Source: a virus (lineage: Duplodnaviria; Heunggongvirae; Uroviricota; Caudoviricetes). From it: a DNA stretch of 44,464 bases. Of this stretch, positions 26,927 through 32,787 are shown one piece after another (positions within the stretch are counted from its first letter, which is position 1; every line of letters begins with the position of its first letter). Where the stretch lies: the IMG/VR virus record IMGVR_UViG_2571042862_000006, positions 1-44,464 of that record; one strand, given 5' to 3'. The position numbers were made by a program, and so were the translations under genes. Below the pieces are notes generated by a model. It was not told where the DNA came from and ran no database searches. It worked only from the letters and a program-made list of their open reading frames with translations.

Positions 26927-28378
26927 TCAGAATCCTCCTTTCTTCTTGGACTGCGGTTCCTCGCGTTCACGTCGGCGCATTTCAGCAGACTGTTGGTCTG
27001 TGTCATAAATAGCGCCATTTGCCTGAATGCAATACACCGTGCCGGTATTGCCATGACGATTGAGACGAAGGATCAGTTCGGTTTCACCAGGTGGAACACT
27101 GTCATCAAAAGCGCCTTCACGATGGATCCCAACCCAATAATCGCAATCCTGTTCAATCTGCCCTGTATCTCGTGAGTCACTTGGTAATGGGCGTTTATTG
27201 GTTCGGCTTTCCAGTGCGCGGTTAAGCTGTGTCAGAAGCACAACAACGCAATCAAGCTCTTTGGCAAGGTTCTTCAGTCCTTTGGTGATCATGCCGTAAG
27301 CAAGGTCGTTGCGATCGGCCTTCTCAGCGGTCATTAGTGTCAGGTAATCGACCAGAATCATGCCAACACATCCTTTTTCTCGCTTGATTCGACGGCTTTC
27401 GCTGACGATTTGAGCCAGAGATAATCCCGGCGTGTCGTCGATGTAAAGCATGTCGATTTCACTCAAGCGATTAGCTGTTTCGATCGCCCTGTTGAAGTCA
27501 CCATCGTAATCACCCTGATAGCCGTCATCAGCGTCATTTGTCGCCGGAAGGTAAAAAATATTCGGGTTAACACCTGACTTCTGTCCTACCAGTTTTTCCA
27601 GTATCTGGTCACCGGGCATTTCAAGGCTGAACATCAGAGCGGGCTTTTTCTCATGCACTGCGCAGTTGATTGCCATCTGGCTGTATAGCGTCGTTTTCCC
27701 CATCTTAGGGCGAGCGCCAATGACAAACAGAGAGCCTTTCACCAGACCTTTCGGTGACAGCATCCTGTCCAGCGATGGGATCCCTGTGCTCATTCCTCGT
27801 TGTTCGCCTGACGGGTCAAATCGCTTCTCAAGGTCGCTAACCCAGTCTTCCATGACCTCACCAAATGAGCGAAGGCCGCGACGCGATCCGGTTTTTGCAT
27901 GGTCTGTCAGTTGCGTGAAAATCGCCTGAATAGCTTCGTACTTCTGCGTTGCAGTCATTCCGTTGCGGGAATAGAGCAATTCCGTCGCTTCAGTCATGCG
28001 GTTGATGGCGTAGCGTTCCATTGCGGTTTCACGAACCTGCATTGCATAGGCAACGATGTTTGCTGCGCTTGGCGTGTTCTTTGCGATCTCAGCGATATAA
28101 GCAAAACCGCCAACAGACACCGTTAACGATTTACGCTCCAGTTCATCGAAAAGCGTCAGGCCATCTACTGGCTTTTGCTCACGGTGCATTCTGGTTATTT
28201 CTTCGAAAATGATTTTGTGTGGTCGGCTGTAAAATGAATCAGGCTTCAGCATCGCCAGGACTTTCTGGACGCGCTCACTGCTGTCATCATCCAGAAGCAA
28301 TCCACCAATCACCGCCTGCTCTGCCTCGATGCTATGGGGCGGCGCATAAAAATTATCGGTCATCGTGTTCACCCTCAC
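26927..28378 (-). CDS. Replicative DNA helicase, DnaB-like (P22 gene 12 analogue)
   Basis: DnaB N-terminal block PPHSIEAEQAVIGGLLLD; Walker A GARPKMGKTT; 483 aa. Confidence 0.85.
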   Translation of the reverse strand: MRVNTMTDNFYAPPHSIEAEQAVIGGLLLDDDSSERVQKVLAMLKPDSFYSRPHKIIFEEITRMHREQKPVDGLTLFDELERKSLTVSVGGFAYIAEIAKNTPSAANIVAYAMQVRETAMERYAINRMTEATELLYSRNGMTATQKYEAIQAIFTQLTDHAKTGSRRGLRSFGEVMEDWVSDLEKRFDPSGEQRGMSTGIPSLDRMLSPKGLVKGSLFVIGARPKMGKTTLYSQMAINCAVHEKKPALMFSLEMPGDQILEKLVGQKSGVNPNIFYLPATNDADDGYQGDYDGDFNRAIETANRLSEIDMLYIDDTPGLSLAQIVSESRRIKREKGCVGMILVDYLTLMTAEKADRNDLAYGMITKGLKNLAKELDCVVVLLTQLNRALESRTNKRPLPSDSRDTGQIEQDCDYWVGIHREGAFDDSVPPGETELILRLNRHGNTGTVYCIQANGAIYDTDQQSAEMRRREREEPQSKKKGGF

Positions 28379-29252
28379 GAACTTTCAGGTAGGTATTATC
28401 GTTAAGCAGGAAATCAAATCCCTTTTTGTGCCAGACGGTTCCGCGTTGATGGTTTGGACGCTCTTCGAACATCCATCGGCAATTTTCGCCTACGTAGCTC
28501 AAATAATTTCTCCAGTCCTGCATCGTGAACCCATGCCCGTCAAGCTGGCGGGTTATCACTCCGGCTTTGCGCCAGAACGTTCGGATCTGGTTTTTACGCT
28601 TGTCATTCAGTGCGCGGATTTTTGGCGCTTCAGGAAGGATTTCGTTGTAAGCATCGACAACATCCTGACAGCTGACGGGAGGTTTTTTCTTGTCAGACTT
28701 TTTGTCTGCTGTGGCACTCTCTAATACGTCAGTATTAGAGATAATATTATTATATTCTTTATCTGTGGTAATTTGCTGGTAATCTGCTGGTACAGTATTG
28801 CTTACAGGCATTGGTATTGCTGGCTTTGAGGTGGTAATTTGCTGGTAATCTGCTGGTACAAAATTTGACTGATAATCGTCATATTTCTCTACCGAGAAAA
28901 CTGAGAATTTACCGTGTGAAACCCAGTCAATCATGCCGAGTTTTTTGAACTTTCTAAGCAGGTACTGAACGCGATCTGGTTTGAGTCCTGTTTCAAACGC
29001 CAGAGAGTTTCTACCGCCAAGTAGCTTCCCTCTGCCTACCAGAATTTCTCCTGCGTCAGTCATTACATACTCAGGCGTATGCTTTGCTTTGAGGATTAAG
29101 TGAACCCACAGATGCGCTGCTTCTGCGTCCTTGTAAAACGGCACATCCATAATTTTACGGTGCAGCAAGGCATACCCCTTACCGCTGCTTTGATGCGGTT
29201 GTTGTAGCCTTCTGGCCTCTCTGGCTTCGGCTAGATTAGATATGTTACTCAT
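28353..29252 (-). CDS. Replication initiator (lambda O / P22 gene 18 analogue) containing the ori iterons
   Basis: Position between cII and the helicase gene; internal iterons plus an AT-rich tract; duplicated peptide PADYQQITT encoded by the iterons. Confidence 0.7.
28765..28860. repeat. Replication-origin iterons: two 30-bp direct repeats, each holding two GCTGGTA(A/C) units, with an AT-rich tract at about 28736..28763
   Basis: GTGGTAATTTGCTGGTAATCTGCTGGTACA occurs at about 28765 and 28831; lambda-like ori architecture (iterons then AT-rich region inside the initiator gene). Confidence 0.6.
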
Positions 29253-29391
29253 GACCTTTCTCCTTCTGCATCAGCTTCACCTTTTCCAACTCAGCCCGGA
29301 ATCGACCAGGCTGCTTGAAGCTGGACAGGAAGCGATCACGTAGTATGTGTTTGTGAATTTTGTCCTGGTAAGGACTGAGTTGTTTTGTCAT
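29245..29391 (-). CDS. Small ORF (about 48 aa) between cII and the initiator gene
   Basis: Hand-translated minus-strand ORF ([15 protein letters not shown]...) preceded by GGAG; stop overlaps the initiator start. Not in the ORF track. Confidence 0.3.
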
Positions 29392-29423
29392 AATTACTCC
29401 TGTGGATTGATCCAGTAATTCCC

Positions 29424-29720
29424 TCAGAATTGCATATCAATTTGCTTAAAATCCTCGGTGGCGGCCGGGGATTTTTTCTTTGTGATTTCATCAAGCGCAT
29501 ACTTAAAAGCCCTGCTAATCGGACTGATGTCTGATGCCATTCCGAAAGCACACAAGACCGAAGCAATAAATCTCCAGTCCGTTCTGCTTATCTTCGATTC
29601 ATGACAGCCAATCATCTTTGCCAGACCGCGCTGGGTAAGCGTCGACAGGTTGATGAGTAAATCAGTTTCAGCGCGATCAATTTCTCGCTGTGTTGGCTTG
29701 CTGTAGCTTGCTTGTGCCAT
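29424..29720 (-). CDS. cII: CII-like transcriptional activator
   Basis: 98 aa, position after cro; HTH segment and C-terminal ...[18 protein letters not shown] resemble lambda CII. Confidence 0.7.
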
Positions 29721-29788
29721 TTGTTAATTTTCCTATATTGATATTGAGTTATAGCGGCACACCCAATGGATTTGCCGCTGATGTTTGC

Positions 29789-29828
29789 TCACCCGGTTAG
29801 AGGTGAAAGGCCATGACTGTTAAAGAGC
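29789..29828 (-). promoter_or_regulatory. nutR-like site: boxA (GCTCTTTAACA) plus boxB hairpin with loop CUAACC
   Basis: boxA is identical to the boxA upstream of N; the boxB-like hairpin shares the CTAACC loop with the nutL hairpin. Confidence 0.45.
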
Positions 29829-29837
29829 GGGTACTGC

Positions 29838-30056
29838 TTAGGCGGCTTTGTTACTGGATGGAGGGAAAACATCATCCAAAGAACATTGGCACCCTAACTT
29901 CCTGAGGCCTTCTACGATCATTCGGCAATCGTTAAGGCCAGGAGTACGGATATTCAGCTCATAGTTGGCGATGCGGGATTGCCCCCAACCAATTGCCGAA
30001 GCTAGTACAGCTTGCGAAACTCCGATTTTTTTTCGCTGCTGGGCAATTTTGTTCAT
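29838..30056 (-). CDS. cro: Cro-like HTH repressor
   Basis: Small HTH protein (QAVLASAIGWGQSRIANYE) divergent from cI; start at MNKIAQQRKK preceded by GGGAGA. Confidence 0.7.
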   Translation of the reverse strand: MNKIAQQRKKIGVSQAVLASAIGWGQSRIANYELNIRTPGLNDCRMIVEGLRKLGCQCSLDDVFPPSSNKAA

Positions 30057-30072
30057 TGCGGTCTCCCTAGCA

Positions 30073-30151
30073 TTAATCACACACCCATTACACACAATTT
30101 GTGATTAACAGTCAACCTCAATTCGTGTACAGAGTTCAATCACGTTGCGTG
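30073..30151. promoter_or_regulatory. OR operator / pR / pRM region
   Basis: Minus-strand pR: TTGACT, 17-bp spacer, TGTAAT. 11-bp dyads CACAATTTGTG (about 30093..30103) and CACGTTGCGTG (about 30141..30151); flanking 9-bp inverted repeat TTAATCACA / TGTGATTAA. Confidence 0.55.
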
Positions 30152-30164
30152 TTACATTTAAGGG

Positions 30165-30812
30165 ATGAAAACGATGCATGAAATTATCGGGGAAAGGATA
30201 AAGTCCCTTAGAGAAGCTAAAGGACTTAGCCAGGCTCAATTGGCCAAGCTTTGCGGCTGGGCTGCGCCTTCACGCCTGGGGAACTACGAGTTAGGAACAA
30301 GAAAGGTTAGCGCGGATGACGCGCTGGTTCTTGGGGCGGCACTCGGCGTATCTCCGGCAAAAATAATGTTTGGCGAGGATTCAGACGCCGTATTTCGCCA
30401 ATATGAATACCCGTTATTTTCTTCAGTGCAGGCCGGGCCATTTTCGGAGGTGGGAAGCTACACAGCCAGCGATGCAAAGGCATGGGTCCCAACGACCACA
30501 AAAGCCAGCGAAAAAGCTTTCTGGCTTGAGGTGAAGGGGCATTCAATGACGGCGCCTCAGGGGGTTCGTCCAAGTTTTCCGGAAGGCATGCTGATACTCG
30601 TTGATCCGGCTGAGCCGGTAGAGTCTGGGGATTTCTGCGTGGCTTCTGCAAATGGTGATTCAGAGGCAACGTTCAAGAAGTATGAGAAGGATGCAGGGGT
30701 TAGTTACCTGGTACCTTTAAACCCGGCATATAGAACCCTGGATTGCGACCATAGCTGCCGCATCATAGGCAAGGTAGTTAAGGCGCAGTGGCCTGAAGAG
30801 ACGTTTGGCTGA
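30165..30812 (+). CDS. cI: CI-type repressor (HTH plus S24 LexA-like autopeptidase domain)
   Basis: C-terminal domain resembles the P22 C2 repressor ([13 protein letters not shown]...EGMLILVDP...ATFKKY); N-terminal HTH; true start may be the second ATG at 30174. Confidence 0.85.
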
Positions 30813-30934
30813 TCGGCAAGGTGTTCTGGTCGGCGCATAGCTGGTAATCCAACTTTTCCCTGTTCTTTTTATGCAAATTAATCTAATGAAATTGAAAAGA
30901 TTTTTACCTATTTTGTTGGTTCAGGAGAACATAA

Positions 30935-31216
30935 GTGAGCGATAAACAAGAAGTTACCTTAGCACATATCAATGATGTGCTGGAGTCCAAAAATTATATT
31001 GAAACTAATGCTGATGGGGTTGTAACCATCGGAACGGATAACAATGGCTACGAAGTTTTTAACTTCGTTTTTCTCAATAGCACCCCTGTCATCGGCCATA
31101 TGAATGGCGAAATCGCAGTGGCAGGAATGCAGCGCACTAAGGTTGCGTCCGTGACTTTAAGTAAACAGAAGGCCTTCGATTTCTATCAGTCCTTGAAAAG
31201 CATGTTCGAGGAATAA
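30935..31216 (+). CDS. Hypothetical protein, 93 aa, first gene of the rex-position cassette
   Basis: GTG start preceded by AGGAGA; AT-rich; no family recognised. Confidence 0.55.
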   Translation: MSDKQEVTLAHINDVLESKNYIETNADGVVTIGTDNNGYEVFNFVFLNSTPVIGHMNGEIAVAGMQRTKVASVTLSKQKAFDFYQSLKSMFEE

Positions 31217-31222
31217 AAGCTG

Positions 31223-31774
31223 ATGAATGCAGCTCAATCATCTTTGGATGAGGGAAAGCTAGTAATTGCTTACTCTGATAAGAATGGCTCTACAGTAGGG
31301 CTGGAATTTTCTTCTGTAGCATCAAGCCAAGCAACGCTCTTGATGAAAGCTTGTTCTGTTGCTGCTTCAGATAAAGAAAAACGGATTGTCACATCGGTTG
31401 TGATGGATGATACTGAGATCATTCAAACAACAAGTGATGATGGAGGCGACGACATGGATAAGCGATTAGCAGTTCTTGAAGCTGAAGTTGCGCACATCAA
31501 GAGCAGCATGGCAGGAATTAAAGAGGATACCCGGAAAATATCTTCTGATTCTACTGACGCCAAAAGAGACACCGCTGTACTTTTACAGAAGAGCCTGGAT
31601 TTTGATGCTTCATTATCTAAGAAACCATCGGTTGACTACTTTGAAGCTAAATTTTCCGCTTTGGAAACCAAGATAGCAGATGTAAAAGTATGGATGCTCG
31701 GGGTTCTCCTGGCCTCGCTTGCTATGCCAACTATATTTTTCCTAATAAACTTGTACCTTAAGAAAGGTCAGTAA
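31223..31774 (+). CDS. Hypothetical membrane-anchored protein, 183 aa, second gene of the rex-position cassette
   Basis: Starts 6 nt after the upstream gene; predicted coiled-coil segment and a single C-terminal transmembrane helix (VWMLGVLLASLAMPTIFFLINLYL); followed by a terminator. Confidence 0.55.
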   Translation: MNAAQSSLDEGKLVIAYSDKNGSTVGLEFSSVASSQATLLMKACSVAASDKEKRIVTSVVMDDTEIIQTTSDDGGDDMDKRLAVLEAEVAHIKSSMAGIKEDTRKISSDSTDAKRDTAVLLQKSLDFDASLSKKPSVDYFEAKFSALETKIADVKVWMLGVLLASLAMPTIFFLINLYLKKGQ

Positions 31775-31783
31775 TTTAGCAAA

Positions 31784-31808
31784 TCCGGCCACCGAGCCGG
31801 GTTTTTTA
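31784..31808 (+). terminator. Rho-independent terminator ending the cI / rex-position operon
   Basis: Stem CCGGC / GCCGG with 6-nt loop followed by GTTTTTTATT. Confidence 0.6.
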
Positions 31809-32020
31809 TTGCCCGCCGATCACTATCAGGACAGCACCTTCCCGCCGGTCCAAACTATTGATTAAATTACTATAATTCTTAATACAACTCCCATATCCCG
31901 CCATCTCACCACCACCCCATTCGCTCGTTTTTCGAACTTTTCAGCACCCATCCTGCTGTTGCCACCGACTTAAGTAAGCAAAACCATCGCGGGTAAAACT
32001 ATTTACACAACAAAATCATA

Positions 32021-32088
32021 CACATAACGTGTCACACCTTTATTTTACACATTTTGTGATTGACCATTAAATCACAATATGTGACTAT
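32021..32088 (+). promoter_or_regulatory. OL operators and pL promoter
   Basis: Three 11-bp dyads CACATAACGTG, CACATTTTGTG, CACAATATGTG spaced about 25-27 bp; candidate pL TTGACC, 17-bp spacer, GACTAT. Confidence 0.5.
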
Positions 32089-32136
32089 CATTTCCATCAG
32101 CAGGACGCTGAGACGCCACAAGGAACAGATTGGCAG

Positions 32137-32176
32137 GCTCTTTAACATCGACGGACTCTCAACCTAACCGTTGAGA
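32137..32176 (+). promoter_or_regulatory. nutL-like site: boxA GCTCTTTAACA plus boxB hairpin TCTCAAC-CTAACC-GTTGAGA
   Basis: Perfect 7-bp stem with 6-nt loop, 10 nt after boxA, upstream of the N-like gene. Confidence 0.5.
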
Positions 32177-32286
32177 CCAGAACTTGAGTGGTTTTGGGGA
32201 TGGCGCGAATTGCAGCTGCAAGACAGCGATCGAGAAGATAAGCACCTCGACGCGTCATGCGCCAAAGCCACTTAAAGGAGACCATC

Positions 32287-32559
32287 ATGGTAACCATTGT
32301 CTGGAAAGAATCCAAAGGTACGGCAAAAAGCCGCTACAAAGCTCGCAGAGCAGAACTTATTGCCGAGCGACGCAGTAATGAAGCACTGGCGCGAAAAATT
32401 GCGCTAAAGCTCTCTGGTTGCGTCAGAGCAGACAAAGCAGCATCACTCGGAAGCCTTTGCTGCAAGGAAGAAGATGAACGCAGTGGAAGTATTTGCCTGC
32501 CAAACGTAGCCATTTACGCGGCAGGATACCGGAAATCAAAACAACTGACGGCGAGGTAA
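32287..32559 (+). CDS. N: N-type antiterminator (P22 gene 24-like)
   Basis: N-terminal arginine-rich motif (GTAKSRYKARRAELIAERRSN); C-terminus LPNVAIYAAGYRKSKQLTAR resembles the P22 gp24 C-terminus; AAGGAG before the ATG. Confidence 0.8.
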   Translation: MVTIVWKESKGTAKSRYKARRAELIAERRSNEALARKIALKLSGCVRADKAASLGSLCCKEEDERSGSICLPNVAIYAAGYRKSKQLTAR

Positions 32560-32562
32560 GTG

Positions 32563-32787
32563 ATGAATCAGACATACATTCCATCATGCTTGAGAAATCT
32601 GCCAAAGCAGAAAGCAAAGCCCCGCAAGCAAGCCATAAAGGACGCTAAGGCAGAGGTTATTGATCAAGCAATACAATTGCTCAGGGAGGAGTTAAGAAGT
32701 GGCAAGCTCGAAGGAATGATGATGCCCTATCAGCGCGGATATCTATCGGCGATTAGTAAGCTGGAAGTATTGAAGAGTGAATTATGA
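32563..32787 (+). CDS. Hypothetical early-left protein, 74 aa
   Basis: ORF immediately after N with a GAGG Shine-Dalgarno. Confidence 0.4.
   Translation: MNQTYIPSCLRNLPKQKAKPRKQAIKDAKAEVIDQAIQLLREELRSGKLEGMMMPYQRGYLSAISKLEVLKSEL

What the first reader, a model, noticed from the sequence alone, without database searches (positions are those of the whole stretch)
30935..31808. Uncharacterised two-gene operon in the rexAB position of the immunity region
Seen in sequence: two AT-rich genes (93 aa and 183 aa) start 6 nt apart between the cI repressor and OL/pL and end in a terminator, which is the placement of lambda rexA-rexB. The second product has a coiled-coil body and a single C-terminal transmembrane helix; neither resembles RexA/RexB or any family I recognise. 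Established knowledge: this locus is expressed in lysogens and in lambdoid phages carries exclusion or abortive-infection genes. Inference: a lysogen-expressed anti-phage or toxin-type module, possibly of a new type.
Basis: partly seen in the sequence, partly recalled or inferred. Interest (0 to 1): 0.8.

Follow-up and report, generated by a model that had tools for sequence, protein, structure and literature searches.

The report
Unstudied two-gene membrane cassette behind cI
Two real but unstudied genes sit just after the prophage repressor gene, where phage lambda keeps its rexAB exclusion genes; they belong to a widespread, modular family that pairs a small soluble protein with a membrane-anchored coiled-coil protein and most likely protects lysogens from other phages, although no experiment shows this yet.

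Summary
Gene A (30935-31216, 93 aa) and gene B (31223-31774, 183 aa) lie between cI and a strong terminator, upstream of OL/pL and N.

- **Mobile cargo.** The cassette (about 30846-31784) occurs at 99% identity behind a different cI in HK544. In mEpX1 the same cI is followed by other cargo, the PADLOC candidate system PDC-M63.
- **Spread.** It is the ECs2991/ECs2992 pair of the Stx1 prophage of E. coli O157:H7 and occurs in 93 of 5426 complete E. coli genomes.
- **No known family.** Pfam, NCBIfam, PADLOC, PDB and fold searches find nothing. PHROGs lists both as "unknown function".
- **B is modular.** It has a variable N-region, a Gly-rich linker, an invariant Met, a conserved coiled coil and one C-terminal membrane helix.
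- **A tracks B's N-region.** A co-varies with the N-region, while the coiled-coil/membrane module is shuffled independently. Relatives have three unrelated partner classes, and most sit directly behind CI-type repressors or in P22's sieA slot.
- **Possible nested product.** A very strong ribosome-binding site precedes the invariant Met in every locus, which suggests a nested 106-aa product.

Best reading (about 0.5): a lysogen-expressed anti-phage module that acts at the membrane, like RexAB in design but unrelated in sequence. Function is inferred, not shown.

The parts
30165..30812 (+). cI repressor (context: first gene of the presumed operon)
   Evidence: Peptidase_S24 E=3e-26, HTH_3/HTH_31. 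Annotated as cI in VT1-Sakai.
30846..31784 (+). Exchangeable cassette: AT-rich leader, gene A and gene B
   Evidence: Against mEpX1 (same cI, other cargo), homology stops at 30845 and resumes at 31785. Against HK544 (other cI, same cargo), 30786-31821 is 99.2% identical. GC is 0.37-0.44.
30923..30927 (+). Shine-Dalgarno AGGAG of gene A, 7 nt before the GTG start
   Evidence: Read directly from the sequence.
30935..31216 (+). Gene A: 93-aa soluble acidic protein (10.3 kDa, pI 4.85), beta-rich with a C-terminal helix
   Evidence: phrog_12039 E=3e-64. 21 homologues at 65-99% identity. No TM segment. Detected as ECs2991 in an O157 proteome. The AF2 model is unreliable (pLDDT 46).
31223..31774 (+). 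Gene B: 183-aa tail-anchored membrane protein
   Evidence: phrog_12602 E=7e-124. Homologues. AF2 model.
31223..31453 (+). B N-region (residues 1-77): beta-hairpin plus helix, then a disordered Gly/Asp-rich linker. It is variable and co-varies with gene A.
   Evidence: AF2 gives strands 10-18 and 24-33, helix 34-48, and pLDDT<50 at 59-75. Identity of A versus the B N-region: Spearman 0.72.
31386..31414 (+). Candidate internal promoter TTGTCA-17 nt-GATACT (weak evidence)
   Evidence: It is the only promoter-like hit in 29700-32400. The hexamers are invariant and the spacer variable in three lineages. Sites at the same position occur in 10 of 15 loci. Codons GAT ACT are identical in all between-lineage pairs that share the residue (one of the 8 loci, L017, has AAT/Asn at T64), against 0.47 overall. 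No single site is significant against shuffles.
31438..31500 (+). DNA segment conserved across all lineages (encodes DGGDDMDKRLAVLEAEVAHIK); the likely recombination joint between the N-region and the C-module
   Evidence: This is the only stretch with blastn similarity to L011, and it is where similarity to L004/L006 begins.
31442..31446 (+). Internal Shine-Dalgarno GGAGG, 7 nt before the internal ATG
   Evidence: Duplex energy with the anti-SD is -9.3 kcal/mol, against -5.9 for B's annotated start. Values are -6.8 to -13.3 in 12 of 12 loci. Only 1 of 240 internal ATGs of long ORFs in the window reaches -9.3.
31454..31774 (+). Proposed nested product 'B-short' (Met78 to end, 106 aa): coiled coil plus C-terminal TM helix; the conserved, shuffled module
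   Evidence: The Met is present in all 21 sequences of alignment A3 (it occupies one of two adjacent columns, M-E or M-L-E register). Some annotation pipelines call this short form at the same loci. The family has 72 representatives at E<=1e-10.
31682..31762 (+). Single C-terminal transmembrane helix (residues about 154-180), followed only by KKGQ
   Evidence: Kyte-Doolittle 19-residue mean up to 2.15, and no other window above 1.6.
31781..31808 (+). Intrinsic terminator (tImm equivalent) ending the cI-A-B transcript
   Evidence: 9-bp stem with 5 GC pairs, followed by a T-run. Annotated as the pRM terminator in VT1-Sakai and as Timm in HK544. Shared with mEpX1.
32018..32088 (+). OL operators and pL (context)
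   Evidence: Coordinates transferred from the 99.4%-identical VT1-Sakai annotation.

Best explanation
This is a lysogenic-conversion ('moron') cassette that rides in the cI maintenance operon. It most likely protects the lysogen against other phages by acting at the inner membrane.

Proposed working:
1. cI, A and B are transcribed together from pRM/pRE and stop at the tImm-like terminator.
2. B is inserted tail-first into the inner membrane by its single C-terminal helix. Its coiled-coil stalk and N-region face the cytoplasm.
3. A is a soluble cytoplasmic protein that pairs with B's matching N-region. Together they form the specificity or sensor part.
4. An incoming phage provides a cue that acts on this part. 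The conserved coiled-coil/TM modules then oligomerise and damage or depolarise the membrane (abortive infection).
5. A second, shorter product (Met78 to end, 106 aa) is made from an internal ribosome-binding site, possibly from its own promoter. It mixes with full-length B to set the threshold or to spare the resident phage. This would parallel excess RexB in lambda and Esc/SieB in P22.

Shown here: the anatomy, the placement, cassette exchange, modular shuffling, A/N-region co-variation, the strong conserved internal SD, and A protein in a lysogen proteome.

Inferred: co-transcription, A-B contact, use of the internal start, anti-phage function and membrane damage.
For: 1. Placement. The pair or its relatives lie immediately behind a repressor in every lambdoid locus examined: Serratia, Pantoea, Enterobacter, Citrobacter, Klebsiella, Salmonella and Brenneria. 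In P22-like phages they lie in the immI region: behind mnt in UPF_BP1, and between arc and gene 16 in L027/L028, where no mnt was called. In P22 the mnt-downstream slot holds orf59a-sieA (PMC10461980).
2. Wider sample. In 46 IMG/VR loci, 21 of 27 distinct upstream genes carry a Cro/C1 HTH, 10 carry S24 and 8 carry Phage_CI_repr.
3. The slot is a cargo slot. The same cargo sits behind another cI in HK544. The same cI precedes PDC-M63, a PADLOC candidate system, in mEpX1. The literature describes cI-N as a mosaic hotspot that holds rexAB and bstA.
4. No terminator or convincing promoter separates cI from A. A protein was detected without deliberate induction.
5. Sensor/effector modularity. A tracks the B N-region (Spearman 0.72) but not the C-module (0.04). 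Three unrelated partner classes are each joined to the same conserved coiled-coil/TM module.
6. Nested start. The SD is strong in 12 of 12 and 40 of 46 loci, and is an outlier in the window. The Met is invariant. There is codon-level conservation around it.
Against: - There is no functional data of any kind.
- There is no similarity to any known defence protein (PADLOC 2023) or any solved fold.
- The A model is unusable (pLDDT 46), so an A-B contact could not be modelled.
- A and the B N-region are physical neighbours, so their co-variation may reflect linkage rather than interaction.
- Gly-Gly codons give SD-like sequence almost by necessity, and overall Gly codon usage near the Met does not differ from elsewhere in the genes.
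- Each promoter-like site is within what shuffles give.
- A few family members lie outside repressor operons: next to tail genes or at a prophage end.
- Proteomic detection of A could come from spontaneously induced cells.
Confidence: 0.5

Rival explanations
1. Superinfection exclusion at DNA entry. The membrane-anchored B, with A, blocks genome injection of related phages at the inner membrane without killing the cell. This is what SieA does in P22 and gp15 does in HK97.
For: In P22-like phages, relatives occupy the immI region that holds sieA in P22, directly behind mnt in UPF_BP1. B is an inner-membrane protein. It is expressed from a maintenance operon.
Against: Almost all of B (about 155 of 183 residues) and all of A are predicted to be cytoplasmic. 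Only about 4 residues can reach the periplasm. Known entry blockers are polytopic or expose their bulk outside the cytoplasm. Variable cytoplasmic sensor-like parts fit post-entry sensing better.
Confidence: 0.2
2. The cassette is not anti-phage. It changes host physiology or prophage maintenance instead. Examples would be a stress-tolerance factor like the host tail-anchored proteins ElaB/YqjD, or a membrane tether that sequesters a host or phage factor and so affects induction.
For: The architecture (cytoplasmic coiled coil plus C-terminal anchor, about 100 aa for the short form) resembles ElaB/YqjD; this comparison is from my own knowledge. A was reported as up-regulated in rumen fluid relative to LB. 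Morons with non-defence roles, such as bor and lom, exist (PMC7067206).
Against: There is no Pfam match to DUF883 or any host family. Extreme diversification of partner and N-region, with three unrelated partner classes, is typical of arms-race targets rather than housekeeping modulators. Known occupants of this slot are anti-phage.
Confidence: 0.15
3. A lysis accessory, comparable to the XhlA holin partner of Bacillus PBSX. The coiled-coil/TM module would help the phage's own holin at the end of the lytic cycle.
For: Some relatives give weak sub-threshold XhlA matches (13-18 bits against a cut-off of 34.7). The overall shape is the same: a short coiled coil followed by a C-terminal TM helix.
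Against: The window protein gives no XhlA hit even at E<=1. The genes are in the repressor operon, far from the lysis genes and on the lysogenic transcript. A protein is present without induction.
Confidence: 0.05
4. B gives only one product. The Gly-rich stretch is simply a flexible protein linker, and the SD-like sequence and promoter-like hexamers are by-products of coding Gly-Gly-Asp, Ile-Val-Thr and Asp-Thr.
For: Any Gly-Gly is GGNGGN. Gly codon usage near the Met is not skewed overall. Promoter-like scores are within the shuffle range. The short-form 'proteins' in databases are alternative gene calls at the same loci, not free-standing genes.
Against: The first Gly codon of the pair is GGA or GGG in all the A-type cassettes printed, giving GGAGG or GGGGG at ideal spacing. 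Synonymous changes between lineages keep the purine. The SD is stronger than that of any first ATG of 30 long ORFs in the window. Met is present in all 21 A3 sequences where Leu, Ile or Val would serve a helix equally well. Codons D63, T64, D73 and D76 are fixed in a region the model calls disordered.
Confidence: 0.35

Closest known systems
Phage lambda RexA/RexB
   Same: Two genes directly after cI, on the pRM/pRE transcript and ended by tImm. The soluble protein comes first and the membrane protein second. A separate route to make the membrane part alone (pLit for rexB; here a candidate internal promoter and SD). The ratio of products is thought to matter (PMC8585504).
   Different: No sequence similarity. 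RexB is polytopic, whereas B has one C-terminal helix and a long cytoplasmic coiled coil. B's membrane module is fused to a variable N-region, and the extra product would be nested in-frame rather than a separate gene.
Phage P22 SieB/Esc (own knowledge: Ranade and Poteete 1993)
   Same: A prophage-expressed abortive-infection membrane protein whose gene also yields an in-frame truncated product from an internal start, which modulates the full-length protein.
   Different: No homology was detected (no SieB family hit). SieB is a single gene elsewhere in the early-left region. Use of the internal start here is only predicted.
Phage P22 SieA
   Same: P22-like relatives of the cassette occupy the immI region that holds sieA in P22, directly downstream of mnt in UPF_BP1. 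[quoted passage not shown]
   Different: SieA is a single protein that is sufficient on its own and blocks DNA injection. No sequence relationship was found.
XhlA (PF10779) and the host tail-anchored proteins ElaB/YqjD
   Same: Small proteins built from a cytoplasmic coiled coil followed by one C-terminal membrane helix.
   Different: Scores are far below the family cut-offs, or there is no hit at all. These proteins have no partner gene, no variable N-region and no repressor-operon context.
PHROG families phrog_12039, phrog_12602 and phrog_3556
   Same: The window proteins are full-length members of phrog_12039 and phrog_12602. The C-module also matches phrog_3556 (E=1e-26).
   Different: All three families are labelled 'unknown function', so membership explains nothing about the mechanism.

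Membership tests
Lambda RexAB | Sequence homology to RexA and RexB | tested here: not met
   Pfam scan at E<=1 and PADLOC scan at E<=1 gave no Rex hit for A or B.
Lambda RexAB | Polytopic (about 4 TM) membrane component | tested here: not met
   B has one hydrophobic segment, residues 154-180.
Lambda RexAB | Location between cI and tImm on the cI strand | tested here: met
Lambda RexAB | Excludes T4 rII and other phages by membrane depolarisation | not testable with these tools
   Needs plating and membrane-potential assays.
P22 SieB/Esc | Homology to SieB | tested here: not met
   No SieB family hit in Pfam, PHROGs or NCBIfam.
P22 SieB/Esc | In-frame internal start giving a truncated modulating product | tested here: inconclusive
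   A strong, conserved SD and an invariant Met are present, but there is no expression data.
XhlA (PF10779) | Score above the Pfam gathering cut-off of 34.7 bits | tested here: not met
   No hit for B at E<=1. Relatives score 13-18 bits.
Known or candidate defence systems (PADLOC-DB 2.0.0) | HMM match of either protein or of any partner class | tested here: not met
   Searches gave none. The mEpX1 cargo in the same slot does match PDC-M63.
Prophage moron in the repressor operon | Exchangeable unit with its own boundaries, lower GC, ended by a terminator, and found behind unrelated repressors | tested here: met
Prophage moron in the repressor operon | Expressed in the lysogen | tested here: inconclusive
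   A (ECs2991) was detected by iTRAQ in an uninduced O157 culture. No transcript data were examined, and spontaneous induction is not excluded.
phrog_12039 / phrog_12602 | Full-length HMM match | tested here: met
   E=2.7e-64 (1-93 of 93) and E=6.8e-124 (1-183 of 183).
Toxin-antitoxin pair | One product toxic and neutralised by the other | not testable with these tools
   No TA family hit. Needs expression tests.

The most novel reading that the evidence does not exclude
The pair is the founding example of a large, unrecognised family of prophage defence cassettes in Enterobacterales.

- **Effector.** A conserved, freely shuffled tail-anchored coiled-coil membrane module.
- **Sensor.** The effector is fused through a Gly-rich linker to interchangeable N-regions. 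Each N-region is matched to one of at least three unrelated partner proteins.
- **Nested product.** The effector is also made alone from a nested promoter, SD and start, as a built-in dose control or self-immunity device.
Probability: 0.3. Interest if true: 0.8.

Novelty: new variant of a known kind. Interest (0 to 1): 0.62.

Why it matters
The cassette sits in the Stx1 prophage of the reference O157:H7 strains Sakai and EDL933, and in the laboratory phage HK544. Its function has nevertheless stayed blank for 25 years.

If it is a defence module, it would add a sequence-novel, modular family to the short list of systems that ride the repressor operon (RexAB, BstA, SieA). It would also give a clean system for asking how a sensor part and a membrane effector are re-assorted.

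A nested effector-only product would bear on an old, unresolved idea from lambda Rex and P22 SieB. That idea is that prophages tune or escape their own abortive-infection genes through the ratio of two related products.

The family also shows an annotation problem. Gene A is missing from the VT1-Sakai record, and pipelines disagree on where B starts.

Tried and rejected
- **Profile libraries.** Pfam, NCBIfam and PADLOC gave nothing for A or B. PHROGs gave only families of unknown function. The same held for 10 distant relatives and 28 partner proteins.
- **Structure of A.** The AF2 model was too poor to use (pLDDT 46). The afdb50 library was not available.
- **PDB sequence profiles.** No hits.
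- **A versus B's N-region.** I tested for homology because both have similar-looking hairpins. hhalign found none.
- **Rfam.** A scan of 29300-32700 gave no hits.
- **Free-standing short forms.** I looked for 93-100-aa genes. Where I could check, they were alternative start calls on the same long ORF (L017), and several others share contig lengths with long forms.
- **Literature.** Searches on locus tags, accessions, PHROG ids and descriptive terms found only the proteomics listing. Brenes and Laub 2025, which screened E. coli prophages for defence, could not be opened, so prior characterisation there is not excluded.
- **Lysis role.** Rejected on context.
Full report
**1. What is there**

The window is a lambdoid prophage read in the opposite direction to the standard lambda map.
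- O lies at 28353-29252, cII at 29424-29720 and cro near 29838-30056. All three are on the minus strand.
- cI (30165-30812) is on the plus strand.
- cI carries Peptidase_S24 (E=3e-26) and Cro/C1 HTH domains.
- Gene A follows after a 122-nt AT-rich leader. It runs 30935-31216, starts with GTG and has AGGAG 7 nt upstream.
- Six bases after A's stop comes gene B (31223-31774).
- A 9-bp GC-rich hairpin with a T-run follows at 31781-31808.
- The operators and pL lie at about 32018-32088. These coordinates were transferred from the 99.4%-identical VT1-Sakai record.
- N follows (PF25694, E=2e-16).

GC drops from 0.52-0.55 in cI to 0.37-0.44 in the pair.

**2. The genes are real**

- A and B match phrog_12039 (E=3e-64) and phrog_12602 (E=7e-124) over their full lengths. 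Both families are labelled "unknown function".
- Intact homologues at 35-99% identity exist in eight genera of Enterobacterales.
- The identical cassette (at least 99%) is present in 93 of 5426 complete E. coli genomes. Among them are O157:H7 Sakai (prophage Sp15, ECs2991/ECs2992) and EDL933.
- A 2014 iTRAQ study lists ECs2991 (10 kDa) among proteins detected in an O157 culture that was not deliberately induced (PMC3936929). A's computed mass is 10.3 kDa.

**3. It is exchangeable cargo of the repressor operon**

- HK544 has a different cI but the same pair. Window 30786-31821 is 99.2% identical to HK544.
- mEpX1 has the same cI (100% identity up to 30845) and the same terminator and pL (from 31785), but a different two-gene insert.
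- That insert matches both proteins of the PADLOC candidate system PDC-M63 (E=2e-41 and 8e-45).
- The literature describes the cI-N interval as a mosaic hotspot that holds rexAB in lambda and bstA in BTP1, both abortive-infection systems (PMC8585504; PMC7067206).
- The promoter/terminator scan finds no terminator between cI and A and no convincing promoter in the leader. Co-transcription with cI is therefore plausible but not shown.

**4. Anatomy of B**

The AF2 model (pLDDT 65) has four parts:
- a beta-hairpin (residues 10-33) and a helix (34-48);
- a disordered stretch (59-75);
- two long helices (78-132 and 137-182).

The only hydrophobic segment is residues 154-180, and only KKGQ follows it. 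B is thus a tail-anchored protein whose bulk faces the cytoplasm.

Alignment of 18 homologues shows three zones:
- a variable N-region;
- an invariant DGGD[DN]-M-x-[KT]-R-[LI]-A-x-L-E-x-x-V-x-x-I-K core;
- at least three alternative C-terminal anchors.

**5. A much larger family**

A profile search of 1.84 billion representatives gave 584 hits at E<=1e-3 and 72 at E<=1e-10. The weaker ones are probably generic coiled coils. Good hits share three features:
- a Gly-rich linker, then Met;
- a coiled coil with the motif D.AV.LQK..DID..LSKKPS;
- a C-terminal anchor.

Their N-regions are unrelated to one another. These relatives fall in phrog_3556, also of unknown function.

**6. Context of the family**

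*Directly behind a CI-type repressor:*
- Every lambdoid locus I opened has the pair immediately behind a repressor. This holds for Serratia, Pantoea, Enterobacter, Citrobacter, a metagenomic phage, Serratia marcescens, Klebsiella, Salmonella and Brenneria.

*In the immI region of P22-like phages:*
- In UPF_BP1 the pair sits directly behind mnt. In L027/L028 it sits between arc and gene 16, with no mnt called.
- P22 itself has orf59a-sieA behind mnt (PMC10461980).
- A Xenorhabdus member lies next to an Arc-like repressor.

*Exceptions:*
- Salmonella phages S107 and 29485 carry it between Rha genes and tail genes.
- A Pantoea prophage carries it at the prophage end.

*IMG/VR sample:*
- A scan of IMG/VR gave 47 loci, of which 46 could be analysed.
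- All 46 have the Gly-linker/Met and an adjacent or overlapping upstream partner ORF.
- Of 27 distinct next-upstream genes, 21 carry a Cro/C1 HTH, 10 carry S24 and 8 carry Phage_CI_repr.

**7. Partners and modularity**

The upstream partners fall into three classes:
- A-like beta-rich proteins of about 90-105 aa;
- zinc-ribbon-like CxxC...CxxC proteins of 112-137 aa;
- proteins of about 135-165 aa with a KIAFxYP...GIYxI pattern.

None has a Pfam or PADLOC family.

Among nine loci with A-type partners, pairwise identities behave as follows:

| Comparison | Spearman |
|---|---|
| A versus B N-region | 0.72 (nominal p = 7e-7; pairs not independent) |
| A versus B C-module | 0.04 |
| B N-region versus B C-module | 0.17 |

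So A and the N-region travel together, and the coiled-coil/anchor module is re-assorted. The joint coincides with the only DNA segment conserved in all lineages, 31438-31500. A "specificity part plus shuffled effector" layout is what one expects of a sensor-effector defence module. Because A and the N-region are also physical neighbours, linkage alone could explain part of the signal.

**8. A nested product?**

*Ribosome-binding site:*
- GGAGG (31442-31446) lies 7 nt before the invariant Met78 codon (31454).
- Its predicted pairing with the 16S 3' end is -9.3 kcal/mol, against -5.9 for B's annotated start.
- In 12 of 12 loci the internal site (-6.8 to -13.3) is stronger than the annotated start.
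- In the IMG/VR set, 40 of 46 loci reach -8.4 or better.
- Within the window only 1 of 240 internal ATGs of long ORFs reaches -9.3. No first ATG of 30 long ORFs does.
- Synonymous changes between lineages (GGA GGC, GGG GGG, GGA GGA, GGG GGT) always keep a purine at the key position.
- Annotation pipelines sometimes call the short form. In Serratia L017 the long ORF has only a TTG start.

*Candidate promoter:*
- A promoter-like TTGTCA-17-GATACT lies at 31386-31414, ending 39 nt before the ATG.
- Its hexamers are invariant while the spacer varies in three lineages.
- Similar sites occur at the same position in 10 of 15 loci.

*Codon-level conservation:*
- The codons GAT ACT (D63, T64), GAT (D73) and GAC (D76) are identical in every between-lineage pair that shares the residue. 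At two of these columns one lineage has a different residue (L017 has AAT at T64; L011 has GGT at D73).
- Overall, 47% of pairs with the same amino acid also share the codon.
- These codons lie in a stretch the model calls disordered.

*Caveats:*
- Each promoter-like site alone is within shuffle expectation.
- Gly-Gly is intrinsically SD-like.
- Overall Gly codon usage near the Met is not skewed.

I rate the nested start as likely (about 0.6-0.65) and the internal promoter as possible (about 0.3).

**9. What it is not**

- Neither protein, 10 distant relatives nor 28 partner proteins hit any curated family. This covers Pfam, NCBIfam and PADLOC.
- Pfam therefore gave no RexA, RexB, SieB or DUF883 match.
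- XhlA matches are far below the cut-off (13-18 bits against 34.7).
- PDB sequence and fold searches return only generic coiled coils.
- Rfam finds no RNA family in 29300-32700.

**10. Mechanism**

The best-supported reading is a lysogen-expressed anti-phage module.
- A plus B's N-region would form a cytoplasmic specificity part.
- B's coiled-coil/anchor module would be the membrane effector.
- A nested effector-only product would tune the system.

In design this is closest to lambda RexAB. The two share the slot, the soluble-then-membrane gene order, and a separate route to the membrane part. It also resembles P22 SieB/Esc, which has an in-frame truncated modulator (from my own knowledge). 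There is no sequence relationship to either.

I give about 0.5 to "anti-phage and acting at the membrane after entry". I give about 0.2 to injection blocking and about 0.15 to a non-defence lysogenic-conversion role. The remainder goes to other explanations. Function, co-transcription, A-B contact and use of the internal start are all inferences.

**11. Novelty and limits**

The genes have been visible as "conserved hypothetical" since the VT1-Sakai and HK544 records. I found no functional study in the searchable library. One directly relevant paper, Brenes and Laub 2025, could not be read.

As far as I could find, four points are new:
- the family-level picture;
- the three partner classes;
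- the A/N-region versus C-module re-assortment;
- the nested start.

I class the finding as a new variant of a known kind: repressor-operon exclusion cassettes.

Noticed in passing
L003 (mEpX1) 1863-3271, the slot equivalent to window 30846-31784: With the same cI as the window, mEpX1 carries a 159-aa plus 310-aa pair that matches both components of the PADLOC candidate system PDC-M63 (E=2e-41 and 8e-45).
   Followed up: partly
L001 (VT1-Sakai, AP000400) 2336-2617, equivalent to window 30935-31216: Gene A is not annotated in the VT1-Sakai record; only H0053 (gene B) is. RefSeq and HK544 annotate both genes.
   Followed up: yes
L008 5025-5234, L009 4552-4749 and L022 4055-4246 (minus strand): A small 63-69-aa ORF family (shared motif GNVIGKGANRDAAELVRKG) lies convergent to the cassette, between it and pL, in several relatives. 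The window has no ORF of 40 aa or more in 31810-32000.
   Followed up: partly
L017 3252-3782 (Serratia marcescens): The long B-like ORF has only a TTG start, which overlaps the end of the partner gene, and the genome annotation calls just the 93-aa short form. Several other loci appear in the protein database as both a long and a short call.
   Followed up: partly
L023 2316-2840 (Xenorhabdus bovienii): This B-like protein carries a tandem duplication of the central motif (DVALILQK...SSSVEKKAN occurs twice), which lengthens the coiled coil.
   Followed up: no
P0060 and P0100: Some database members are frameshifted just after the N-region. They keep the N-region but lose the coiled coil and anchor, so they are possibly inactivated copies.
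   Followed up: no
window 32555 onward: Identity to VT1-Sakai ends just after N. VT1-Sakai has sieB on the minus strand there, whereas the window continues with small plus-strand ORFs (32560-32787 and beyond). The window as a whole is a mosaic, with its best matches to Sf6-, IME10- and 683R2-like phages.
   Followed up: partly
window 32257-32559: The longest N ORF starts at 32257, but the annotated N start in VT1-Sakai corresponds to the ATG at 32287.
   Followed up: no
window 31050-31068: A weak hairpin with a T-run (8-bp stem, 3 GC pairs) lies inside gene A on the plus strand. It is probably a chance match.
   Followed up: no
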